Source: the human T2T-CHM13v2.0 reference genome, Homo sapiens
Assembly: GCF_009914755.1 (NCBI RefSeq)
Contig: NC_060947.1
DNA length: 64,000 bases
Direction: 5' to 3' (one strand)
Shown: in pieces, positions 29,801 to 32,800 of the stretch
How positions within the stretch are numbered: the stretch's first letter is position 1
How the letters are laid out: each line of letters starts with the position of its first letter
Notes under the pieces: model-generated
Told to the model about the DNA's origin: nothing
Database searches by the model: none
Seen by the model: the letters and a program-made list of their open reading frames with translations, nothing else
Program-made: the position numbers and the translations under genes

Positions 29801-32800
29801 GGACTCAGGAGGCAGGAAGCGGAAGGCAGAGGGGACAACAACAGAAACGGGGTGAAGGTAGGGGAGGGACGGATGGGTGAGACATAGGAGAGGAGAGACA
29901 AGGGAGAAACAGGATGCAATGCAAAGGGAAGGGAAAGACTCTCTACTGCGGAGGTGGAGTTCAGGGAGGAGAAGAGGAGAAAAGGGCTCCCCTGCTGCAG
30001 CCCTTTCCCTCACTGCTCCCTGGCTGGCCCCGGGGACCGAGGCAGGAAAGGAAAACATGCGCCTGTTGGGCTGGGGCCCACTGGTTGCAGCTGGAGCCTT
30101 CCTCACCTGTGTGAGCTCAGTCTGAGCTGGGCATGGGAAACAGAGCAGCCACGGGGACAGGAGACCTTCTCCCGGGAGGAGTGAAGAGTCAGGCCCCAGC
30201 TCAGCATGGGGTTCAGAGTCTGGGGACCCCCTCTCCAGACCACTGCATTCTCTTCTGATGGTCCCTGACTCCTGTGCCCCTCTGTGCTGACGCCTTGACC
30301 GAGGAATGCTACCCATCTCGGGCTACCCAGGGCTCCTCTGAGGGCCCAGGCAGGACGATGTGAGGTGGAGAAGGAGGGAAGGTGGGGCAGTGCCCTGAGA
30401 GGCCTGTCCTTCTGTCTTCTCAACCTCCTCTGCCCTCTGCCTTCCACTCCTGCCTCAGGAACGTGGCCCGCTTCTGGACCCTTGACGTAGGAAACCCAGG
30501 TTTCTCCCCAAGGAGGGCCCAGCTCCTGGCATTGGGCCAGAGGAAGAGATGGCATGACAGCAGCCACCCGGGGCCCCAGCCCTCAGTATGGGGCAGGGAA
30601 GCCCCCATGCCAGCCCAGGACAGGTGGGGGGACCTTTTTGGAGCAAGAGAAGGAGAACCCCTCTCGGGACAGGGGAGGGAAGCCCCATCTCAGCATGGAG
30701 GCAGGAAGGCCTGTCTCAGCATGAAGCCCCGGACTAAAGGACTCTTCTCGGTCCAGGGCACCAGCATCTGAATACTGCTGGTCCTGGGGAGGTGGGGGAG
30801 CCCCACTTCCTGGAGCACACTCACAGAGGGCACACTGGAGGAGGCTTGGTGGAGACAGGCGGGAAACACACCCCAGAGCAGGTGAAAAGGGGACCATGTC
30901 AGAGGAAGGAAAGGAGACCTCTAAGCACAGATGAGTGAGTGACAGAGAGAGAGGAGAGAGAGAGAGAGAGAGTAGGAAGGGAGGTCTGTGGTCCTCCCAG
31001 AGGACCAAGGCTGCTTCTTCCTGCAGAAGGGCACCTTCAGACACAGCTCAGTCACCCAGGGAGCAAAGGTGCCCAGGAAGGGTGACAGGGGTTGCCACTG
31101 ACCTTACATAGGCAGACTGGTCCGAGAAGGTGCTGCACAACGGGTTCCCTTCTAGCCATAGCTCTTCGAGCTTCAGCCCTTTCACCTTGCCCAACTCCCA
31201 CGCCGACTCCAGCTAAGAAAGATGGGGAGGAAACTGGAGAAGGAGGGCCAGGGAAAGAGAGACACCCAGGACCCTGGGCCCTGAATTCCCCCGGCCCTCA
31301 TAGTCACCCACAGGTGCCACTGCCTGGCTGTTGCCATTATCCTGATGTGTCCTGCCCTCCACCCAAAGTTGATCTGGCTCCCCCTTCTCACCTTATTTTT
31401 GGAGAGATTCAGGGTCTTGACTTTGGGAGCCTTCTCTGTAATGTCAGAAAGGCCATCCAGCTGGTACAGTTTGTTGTTGCACAAGTTCAAAGACAACAGC
31501 TTTGGGTCAAGAAGAGTTAGAGTGGCGGCTACTATCTTGGGCCTCAGAGACAAATCTGCCCTCCACCTTATCCCTTCCACCCCTCTAACTAAATACCAGC
31601 ACTGAGCCTAAGGCTTCACCTCAGGGAAATTTCTTTCAGTGATCTTCAGGGTGGCAGCCATGCAGTTTCTTCGATTCAGGATTATATCAATGTCACGGCC
31701 CATCAAGTCTTGAAGAAGCCAAGAGAAGGGAATCGGAAGGCTGGGAGGGCCCTGGCTGGACCAGAGCCAGCCCCAACCCCTCTGTAAATTGCCATTCCTA
31801 AGTCTCCCTCCCAGGCAGACCTCTCTGCCCCCGCTTGTCTTAGAATTGCTGCTGTCAGCCTTACCTGGGTCAAAGCGGAGATTCTGGAGATCAAGAGCTT
31901 GCTGGGAGACATTGTACCGTTTGTTCATGGTCAGCTGCAGAGATAGAGATGAAGACAGAGGCTCTGGGGCTCTGGTGATGGTGGTGGTGGTGGTGGTGGT
32001 GGTGACAGGGAAAGAGGGGGCCAGGGGAAGAAGAGGTGGGTCCAGGAAGTGGACATACAATGATCCTTGAGTCTGTATTACCTTTAGCATCTCCATTTGG
32101 CCTGGCTTCAACTTATTCTTCACAGAGTAGGGCGCAGTAAAATGACTGACAAATATACATATCTGCAGGAAGGCAGGGTGGTAAGTACCAGGACCTCCAA
32201 TCCCAAAGACAATGACCAGTCCCCTGGCCTGTCCTCCTGCCCAAAGACTAAGTACAGGGAATGCCCTCAGCACACACCTTTTGGTTCTCATCATCATAAA
32301 TCTTATAACTGACATCCTTCAATGCAGAGGCAGCACTAGCAACCTGGACAAAGAAGCATGCCCGATTTCGGATGTAGTGGAACTACAGGGAGTGAAGGCA
32401 AGAGCAACAGCGTCAGAGGCCAATGGCCCCTGCTGAGCCAGGTCTCTCTCCATCCCCTGTGTCCACTCATCTGGCTTCACCATCCTCTCTTACATCAACC
32501 GGAGTGAAGGGGACACTGCAATTGCTCTGGATTGAATTCATTAGCCATGCCTTGTCATACTTTATCCCATAAGGAATCTAAGCATAAAAAGAAGAAATAG
32601 CAGAGAAGGGAGAGACAACATGGAACTAAGTTTGGAGAACAGAAACAACCAGCTGTTTATTTTTCCAGCTTTCTACTTAGCTTGGACTTCTAAAGAAGGG
32701 ACCACTGACATGATTTCTTATTTTTGTGCCAAATATGGATTCCCTAAGCTACCTTTCTCTCCATTCTGAAGCTCTCTTTCAAATAATCAACTTAGGGTGT

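What the first reader, a model, noticed from the sequence alone, without database searches (positions are those of the whole stretch)
31048..31104. Intron-encoded peptide matches the short-NXF1 tail in length and sequence
Seen: reading through the non-consensus donor AG|GTCAGT gives [21 protein letters not shown] (18 aa). The short NXF1 tail as I recall it is RSVVACVSPPGDLHPLGG-stop (18 aa), giving 9 of 18 identities, no indels and the same stop position. Inference: such conservation in intronic DNA between old paralogues suggests coding or RNA-level constraint.
Basis: partly seen in the sequence, partly recalled or inferred. Interest (0 to 1): 0.8.

Follow-up and report, generated by a model that had tools for sequence, protein, structure and literature searches.

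The report
Leftover short-isoform tail in NXF5 intron
The first 55 bases of this NXF5 intron are a copy, inherited from the ancestral gene, of the stretch that encodes the 18-residue end of the known short NXF1 protein, and in NXF5 it looks like a drifting relic rather than a working coding segment.

Summary
Reading through the AG|GTCAGT donor of NXF5 exon 31103-31212 (minus strand) gives 18 codons and then TGA. The two tails share 9 of 18 residues and 44 of 57 nt, with no indel and the same stop.

The peptide match adds nothing beyond the nucleotide match:
- Changes fall on codon positions 1, 2 and 3 as 6, 5 and 2, giving dN/dS of 2.67, against 0.13 in the adjoining exon.
- The two other reading frames give 11/18 and 10/18 identities.
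- Random substitution at the same density gives a mean of 10.9/18.

The nucleotide conservation is real, but it lies on the deep branch, meaning the NXF1 lineage plus the early X-linked ancestor. That branch has 2 changes in 36 columns, against 33% in the rest of the intron. The recent X-linked branches drift at or above the intron rate, and the NXF3-like copy has a 19-nt frameshifting deletion.

The export element (CTE) that NXF1 needs to express its retained intron is degraded in all X-linked copies. Verdict: an inherited relic of low interest.

The parts
31103..31212 (-). NXF5 exon homologous to NXF1 exon 10 (end of the LRR domain).
   Evidence: It is in the annotation given with the finding. 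It matches NXF1 at 81/110 nt and 69% of 36 residues. dN/dS against NXF1 is 0.13.
31097..31102 (-). Non-consensus splice donor GTCAGT (C at +3).
   Evidence: It is identical in all six human copies. It is the only donor with C at +3 among those displayed for the two genes.
31048..31104 (-). Read-through ORF of 18 codons plus TGA, homologous to the intron-10-encoded tail of short NXF1.
   Evidence: It matches NXF1 at 44/57 nt and 9/18 residues, ungapped.
31051..31086 (-). Possible hairpin. The arms GTCACCC (31086-31080) and GGGTGAC (31057-31051) can also pair in NXF1, with one two-sided change and one G-U. The deletion in the NXF3-like copy breaks it.
   Evidence: The evidence is weak: the covariation term is +3.43 and the NXF1 z-score is -0.55.
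29431..31102 (-). Whole intron (1672 nt), homologous along its length to NXF1 intron 10 (1801 nt).
   Evidence: 60.4% identity over aligned columns with 36 gap openings. The 1801-nt length agrees with Wang et al. 2015.
30268..30334 (-). Degraded homologue of the NXF1 constitutive transport element.
   Evidence: 44/67 columns are identical. The inner-loop hexamers AGAGAC and AAGACA read CGAGAT (30320-30315) and CAGAGG (30284-30279). 13 of 18 NXF1 stem pairs are kept.
31392..31499 (-). Long (108-nt) form of the upstream exon. Only this form puts exon 31103-31212 and the tail in the NXF reading frame.
   Evidence: With the 44-nt form used by NR_159738.1, the ORF stops before exon 31103-31212. With the long form, the spliced ORF is 368 residues and the intron-retaining ORF is 250 residues.

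Best explanation
The 57 bases are the NXF5 copy of the start of ancestral NXF intron 10. In NXF1 this intron is retained, exported through its CTE and translated, so its first 55 bases encode the C-terminal 18 residues of short NXF1 (this is known for NXF1). When the X-linked NXF genes arose by duplication they inherited the weak GTCAGT donor, the ORF and the stop.

The NXF1 side has stayed constrained. This roughly halves the divergence seen between the paralogues and explains why the block of high identity ends at the stop codon.

The X-linked side has been drifting:
- The CTE loops are destroyed.
- Substitutions in the tail are mostly nonsynonymous.
- The NXF3-like copy is frameshifted.

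The frame and stop survive in NXF5 and in the NXF2-like and NXF4-like copies because no indel or stop-hitting substitution happened to occur, and because those four copies are only 0.5-5% apart from each other.

Shown: the homology, the substitution pattern, which branch carries the conservation, and the CTE decay. Inferred: that constraint on the NXF1 lineage is the cause, and that NXF5 makes no functional short protein.
For: - The NXF1 tail is as recalled, and the exon is identical to solved NXF1 chains.
- Li 2016 gives the 18-residue tail, and an antibody against it detects protein in mouse and rat (passages).
- Tail dN/dS is 2.67 (11 nonsynonymous, 2 synonymous) against 0.13 in the exon. 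Fisher P = 0.041 for the distribution over codon positions.
- The other frames give 11/18 and 10/18. In a simulation of 100,000 runs with 13 random substitutions, the mean identity was 10.9/18, P(>=9) was 0.97, and P(stop kept with no earlier stop) was 0.40.
- Lineage sorting on 36 columns: deep branch 2/36 against 505/1541 in the rest of the intron (P = 0.0002); NXF5-side branch 4/36 against 61/1541 (P = 0.058, faster); NXF3-like branch 2/36 against 68/1541, plus a 19-nt deletion.
- The NXF3-like read-through is 26 residues with a different stop.
- The CTE inner loops are changed at 5 of 12 bases in all five X-linked copies, and 5 of 18 stem pairs are broken. Wang 2015 reports no inner-loop change across most of 36 mammals (section read).
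- Under a clock-like split, a neutral X-linked stem would give 6.2 changes in 36 columns. 2 to 4 were seen, with P = 0.055 to 0.26, so constraint on the NXF1 side alone suffices.
- The annotation supplied with the finding lists no NXF5 transcript that retains this intron and classes the gene as a transcribed pseudogene.
Against: - If the CTE block (23/67 changes, all necessarily on the X-linked stem) is taken as the yardstick for X-linked drift, 12.4 changes are expected in the tail and only 2 to 4 are seen (P = 0.0004 to 0.006). That would mean the early X-linked ancestor also kept the tail constrained.
- Deep-branch conservation stops within 6 nt of the stop codon, and the first indel (5 nt) follows at once. 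This also fits frame-level selection in both lineages.
- A 7-bp stem is kept in NXF1 and NXF5 through one two-sided change and one G-U.
- The NXF2-like copies belong to intact genes and carry the same tail, with 1 synonymous difference.
- No orthologue, expression or ribosome data could be examined.
Confidence: 0.65

Rival explanations
1. An RNA-level element. The donor-proximal 60 nt regulate how efficiently the weak GTCAGT donor is used, and hence intron retention. This would work through a local hairpin and/or the two conserved CTGGG runs, and the element would be kept in NXF1 and at least in the early X-linked genes regardless of the reading frame.
For: - The substitution pattern is blind to codon position.
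- The GTCAGT donor is identical in 6 of 6 copies.
- The 7-bp stem is kept with one compensatory change and one G-U, and its 3' arm ends at the stop.
- The NXF5 segment folds better than shuffles (z = -2.46).
- Another donor-proximal segment, after exon 23141-23201, is equally conserved (42/55) without being coding.
- Both CTGGG runs are present in NXF1 and NXF5.
- That G-runs near donors act as splicing enhancers is recalled general knowledge, not tested here.
Against: - The RNAalifold covariation term is positive (+3.43), and only 1 of 27 pairs has a two-sided change.
- NXF1 folds no better than shuffles (z = -0.55), and neither does the NXF3-like copy (z = +0.90).
- NXF1's own minimum-energy fold uses a different register.
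- The NXF3-like copy deleted 19 nt of the segment, and the NXF5-side branch changes faster than the intron.
- There are effectively only three independent sequences.
Confidence: 0.15
2. A functional short isoform of the X-linked NXF genes. NXF2, and perhaps NXF5, would make a truncated protein ending in this 18-residue tail, and selection would keep its length and stop.
For: - The frame and TGA are kept in 4 of 5 X-linked copies.
- There is no indel until 6 nt past the stop.
- Conservation bounded by the ORF is in the lowest 2 of 1506 sliding windows.
- The CTE-yardstick test gives P = 0.006 or lower.
- With the long exon form, the NXF5 intron-retaining ORF is 250 residues.
Against: - dN/dS is 2.67, and omega of 0.5 or lower is rejected at P = 0.024.
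- The four copies that keep the frame are 95-99.5% identical in this intron, so they are not independent.
- The one older copy, the NXF3-like one, is frameshifted.
- The CTE is degraded, so the known export route for such an mRNA is missing.
- No retaining transcript is annotated, and NXF5 is classed as a pseudogene (table supplied with the finding).
- The four literature searches found no paper describing such an isoform (listings and abstracts only, apart from the papers read).
Confidence: 0.1
3. Pure coincidence within neutrally diverging homologous intron sequence.
For: - The whole intron is alignable at 60% identity, and three other blocks reach 75-82%.
- Equal read-through length occurs at 3 of 13 donors. 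One of these is 85/85 at a donor whose introns differ by 12 nt, so the equal length there does not come from an ungapped shared stretch.
- P(stop kept) is 0.40.
Against: - The deep branch has 2/36 changes against 32.8% in the intron, P = 0.0002.
- Only 2 of 1506 sliding windows and 0 of 42 non-overlapping windows are as low.
Confidence: 0.07

Closest known systems
Short Nxf1 (sNxf1, small Tap): the 356-residue protein translated from NXF1 mRNA that retains intron 10 (Li et al. 2016, PMC5170612, passages read; Li et al. 2006, Nature, recalled and not held).
   Same: The intron is homologous and has the same GTCAGT donor. It has the same 18-codon read-through and the same TGA, with 44/57 nt and 9/18 residues identical.
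   Different: - In NXF5 and the other X-linked copies the CTE is degraded.
- The tail shows no purifying selection.
- No retaining transcript is annotated.
- NXF5 needs an alternative upstream exon form for the frame to reach the tail at all.
NXF1 intron-10 constitutive transport element (Wang et al. 2015, PMC4338338; abstract, section 5 and search passages read).
   Same: A homologous block lies at the corresponding place in the NXF5 intron (window 30268-30334), with 44/67 columns identical and 13 of 18 stem pairs kept.
   Different: Both inner-loop hexamers are changed, at 5 of 12 bases, in all five X-linked copies. Wang et al. report no inner-loop change across most of 36 mammals. I inferred which bases form the loop from the paper's numbering (32-37 and 68-73) and from RNAfold. 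The figure itself is not held.
Conserved donor-proximal intronic segments of alternatively processed introns (a general phenomenon, recalled).
   Same: There is high ungapped identity next to a weak donor. A second NXF5/NXF1 intron start shows the same level, 42/55.
   Different: Here the conserved block coincides with a known translated ORF in the paralogue, so coding constraint on the NXF1 side suffices to explain it.

Membership tests
sNXF1-type short isoform (retained intron 10, CTE-dependent) | A homologous intron follows the exon-10 homologue, with an in-frame read-through ORF ending at a nearby stop. | tested here: met
   18 codons plus TGA in NXF5 and in NXF1, aligned without gaps.
sNXF1-type short isoform (retained intron 10, CTE-dependent) | A CTE with intact inner loops lies inside the retained intron. 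| tested here: not met
   The loops AGAGAC and AAGACA read CGAGAT and CAGAGG, and 5 of 18 stem pairs are broken. No Rfam family matched the NXF1 or X-linked introns at these places (17 matches at E<=1, none over the CTE block or the tail, all below their gathering scores).
sNXF1-type short isoform (retained intron 10, CTE-dependent) | Purifying selection acts on the intron-encoded tail. | tested here: not met
   dN/dS is 2.67 against NXF1. The NXF5-side branch changed at 4/36 against 4.0% in the intron. The NXF3-like copy is frameshifted. This used human paralogues only; orthologues were not available.
sNXF1-type short isoform (retained intron 10, CTE-dependent) | A mature, exported, translated mRNA retains the intron, and the protein is detected. 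| not testable with these tools
   No RNA, ribosome or proteome data are held. The supplied annotation lists no retaining transcript.
NXF gene family, exon-10 homologue | The exon is homologous to NXF1 exon 10 and under coding constraint. | tested here: met
   69% residue identity, E = 1.9e-9. dN/dS is 0.13. The NXF1 exon is identical to solved NXF1 chains.

The most novel reading that the evidence does not exclude
The X-linked NXF genes kept the 18-codon tail ORF under frame-level or RNA-level selection long after losing the CTE. NXF2, and possibly NXF5, would then still produce a short, CTE-independent isoform in testis or brain that acts as a cofactor in the way sNxf1 does for Nxf1.
Probability: 0.1. 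Interest if true: 0.5.

Novelty: new member of a known kind. Interest (0 to 1): 0.2.

Why it matters
If the relic reading holds, it matters little. It shows that the weak donor, the read-through ORF and the stop of the short-NXF1 isoform predate the duplication that gave rise to the X-linked NXF genes. It also shows that those genes then lost the export element and the constraint.

It is also a useful caution. A residue-level match between an intronic ORF and a known isoform tail can be fully explained by nucleotide identity that comes from constraint on the other paralogue only.

If the minority reading were true, NXF2 and NXF5 would have unrecognised short isoforms, which would bear on neuronal and germ-cell RNA transport.

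Tried and rejected
- **Rfam.** I searched the NXF1, NXF2-like, NXF4-like and NXF3-like intron loci, not the window itself. There were 17 matches at E<=1, none over the tail or the CTE block (mostly SRP/Alu-like and microRNA-like), and all were below their gathering scores.
- **A slip of my own.** The first DNA alignment used wrong locus coordinates, so its alignment is meaningless. I repeated it with the right coordinates.
- **Conserved RNA structure over the exon end and tail.** The result was inconclusive.
- **Li et al. 2006.** The paper is not held.
- **PMC8151460.** It contains none of the searched terms on retained introns or paralogues.
- **Literature on a short NXF2 or NXF5 isoform, or on tail conservation among paralogues.** Four searches found none. 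I read passages or sections of PMC5170612 and PMC4338338 only and did not look at supplements.
- **Recent gene conversion between NXF1 and the X-linked copies.** I rejected this as the cause of the local identity, because the adjoining exon is only 73.6% identical and the tail only 76-77%.
- **Rows dropped from the donor control.** Exon 28096-28258 was dropped because my predicted NXF1 boundary did not fall on a GT. Five more of the 19 listed exons were left out: four had no usable blastn match to NXF1 (48117-48189, 28946-29014, 28804-28859, 27338-27410), and the last exon (22716-22994) has no donor.

Full report
**What is there.** On the minus strand, NXF5 exon 31103-31212 ends ...TATGTAAG and the intron begins GTCAGT. 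Translating across the junction gives ...SAYV, then [18 protein letters not shown], then TGA at 31050-31048.

**Is the recalled NXF1 tail right?** The window's own genome is searchable.
- A protein search with the 36-residue exon found six places: the window itself, two identical copies, one 94% copy and one weak 44% copy on the same chromosome, and one 69% match on contig C11.
- The C11 exon is 36/36 identical to PDB chains named Nuclear RNA export factor 1 (7 distinct sequences matched), so that locus is NXF1.
- Its read-through gives RSVVACVSPPGDLHPLGG and then TGA, exactly as recalled.
- Li et al. 2016 (PMC5170612, passages) describe the short Nxf1 as 356 residues with 18 novel residues encoded by intron 10. 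They also report that an antibody to that peptide detects protein in mouse and rat tissue.
- The intron I mapped in NXF1 is 1801 nt, the length given by Wang et al. 2015.
- The names I use for the X-linked copies rest on recalled map order, not on any call: NXF2-like at 100.76 and 100.81 Mb, NXF4-like at 101.01 Mb and NXF3-like at 101.53 Mb.

**Peptide or nucleotides?**
- NXF1 and NXF5 differ at 13 of 57 nt in the tail. These fall on codon positions 1, 2 and 3 as 6, 5 and 2. The adjoining exon has 10, 4 and 15 (Fisher P = 0.041).
- Nei-Gojobori dN/dS is 2.67 for the tail (11 nonsynonymous, 2 synonymous) and 0.13 for the exon.
- Eleven or more nonsynonymous changes out of 13 is unremarkable under neutrality (P = 0.21). 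It is very unlikely at omega 0.13 (6e-6), 0.3 (0.002) or 0.5 (0.024).
- The two other frames of the same 57 nt give 11/18 and 10/18 identical residues, so the supposed coding frame is the worst of the three.
- Scattering 13 substitutions at random beyond the splice site gave a mean of 10.9/18 identical residues over 100,000 runs. Nine or more occurred in 97% of runs, and the stop was kept with no earlier stop in 40%.
- The 9/18 match therefore follows from 77% nucleotide identity.

**Is the nucleotide identity unusual?**
- The whole intron is alignable. Excluding the tail, it has 940 matches, 615 mismatches and 36 gap openings, which is 60.4% identity. Third codon positions of the exon are 58% identical (21/36), so about 60% looks like the neutral level.
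- The tail's 44/57 is above that (P = 0.006, or 0.04 without the eight splice-site bases).
- 75 of 1768 sliding windows reach 44 matches, 170 are gap-free and 6 are both.
- As a control I compared the first 55 intron bases, ungapped, at 13 homologous donors of NXF5 and NXF1. The tail segment and the segment after exon 23141-23201 both score 42/55. The next best are 34, 34 and 32, and the rest are 16-26.
- Equal read-through length occurs at 3 of the 13 donors (1/1, 18/18 and 85/85). At the 85/85 donor the two introns differ by 12 nt, so the equal length does not come from an ungapped shared stretch.

**Where on the tree is the conservation?**
- All five X-linked copies share the intron. Against NXF5, the two NXF2-like copies are 99.5% identical, the NXF4-like copy 95.1% and the NXF3-like copy 88.3%.
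- With the NXF3-like copy as a third sequence, 36 tail columns can be sorted by branch.

| Branch | Tail | Rest of intron | Fisher P |
|---|---|---|---|
| Deep (NXF1 lineage plus X-linked stem) | 2/36 | 505/1541 | 0.0002 |
| NXF5-side | 4/36 | 61/1541 | 0.058 (faster) |
| NXF3-like | 2/36, plus a 19-nt deletion | 68/1541 | 0.67 |

- The exon has 11/110 changes on the deep branch.
- Only 2 of 1506 sliding windows of 36 informative columns, and 0 of 42 non-overlapping ones, have as few deep changes as the tail.
- The deep-branch conservation ends within 6 nt of the stop. A 5-nt indel and dense changes follow.
- The 19-nt deletion in the NXF3-like copy shifts the frame and gives a 26-residue read-through with a different stop.
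- So there was real constraint, but on the branch that includes the whole NXF1 lineage, where the segment is known to be translated. It is not visible in the recent history of NXF5.

**Was the early X-linked ancestor constrained too?** This stays open.
- Under a clock-like split, a neutral X-linked stem would give 6.2 changes in 36 columns. 2 to 4 were seen (P = 0.055 to 0.26).
- The CTE block has 23 changes in 67 columns. All of these must lie on the X-linked stem if NXF1's CTE is as conserved as Wang et al. report. Using that as the yardstick, 12.4 changes are expected (P = 0.0004 to 0.006).
- The CTE block itself has more changes than the clock-like estimate allows (P = 0.002), so the two yardsticks disagree.

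**Can NXF5 express such a tail?**
- In NXF1 the retained intron is exported and translated through its CTE (Wang 2015 and Li 2016).
- The homologous block in NXF5 (window 30268-30334) is 44/67 identical. The two inner-loop hexamers differ at 5 of 12 bases in all five X-linked copies, and 5 of 18 stem pairs are broken.
- The listed RefSeq transcript uses a 44-nt form of the upstream exon, and its ORF ends before exon 31103-31212. Only the 108-nt form (31392-31499) keeps the frame. It gives a 368-residue spliced ORF and a 250-residue intron-retaining ORF.
- The supplied annotation has no transcript that retains this intron and classes NXF5 as a transcribed pseudogene.

**RNA-level alternative.**
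- RNAalifold over the exon end and tail predicts 27 pairs with a positive covariation term (+3.43) and one two-sided change.
- That change lies in a 7-bp stem, GTCACCC/GGGTGAC in NXF5 and GTCTCCC/GGGAGGC in NXF1. Its 3' arm abuts the stop, and the NXF3-like deletion breaks it.
- Folding z-scores are -2.46 for NXF5, -0.55 for NXF1 and +0.90 for the NXF3-like copy.
- This remains a weak lead.

**Verdict.** The simplest account is common descent plus constraint on the NXF1 copy, with decay on the X-linked side. I found no paper describing a short NXF2 or NXF5 isoform, or this paralogue comparison, in four searches. Orthologue, expression and ribosome data were not available here and would be decisive.

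Noticed in passing
L015 (G000:C23:101524000-101527700), exon homologous to window 31103-31212: The NXF3-like copy's exon differs from NXF5 at 42/110 nt, spread evenly over codon positions (15, 11 and 15; one search counts 41 differences over the 108 nt in whole codons). Its flanking intron differs at only 186/1594. On the NXF3-like branch there are 24/110 exon changes against 68/1541 intron changes (P = 1e-9). An exon evolving several times faster than its intron suggests positive selection or patchy gene conversion.
   Followed up: partly
window 23086-23140 (-): The first 55 intron bases after NXF5 exon 23141-23201 are 42/55 identical, ungapped, to the NXF1 homologue. 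This equals the tail segment, yet the read-through ORFs there differ in length, 89 against 26 residues. It may be a splicing-regulatory block.
   Followed up: no
window 31392-31499 (-): NR_159738.1 uses a 44-nt form of this exon (31392-31435), which breaks the NXF reading frame. The ORF then ends at 168 residues, before the next exon. The 108-nt form restores the frame.
   Followed up: yes
window about 30950-30985 (-): A (CT)n run in the intron varies in length among the X-linked copies and is absent from NXF1.
   Followed up: no
window 30268-30334 (-): The homologue of the NXF1 CTE is recognisable, but both inner-loop hexamers are mutated identically in all five X-linked copies. The loss therefore predates their divergence.
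   Followed up: yes
L011 (G000:C11:62786800-62790300), positions 13-1028 and 3214-3360: Several SRP/Alu-like matches lie around NXF1 exon 11 and its flanks. All are below the Rfam gathering score and are ordinary Alu elements.
   Followed up: no
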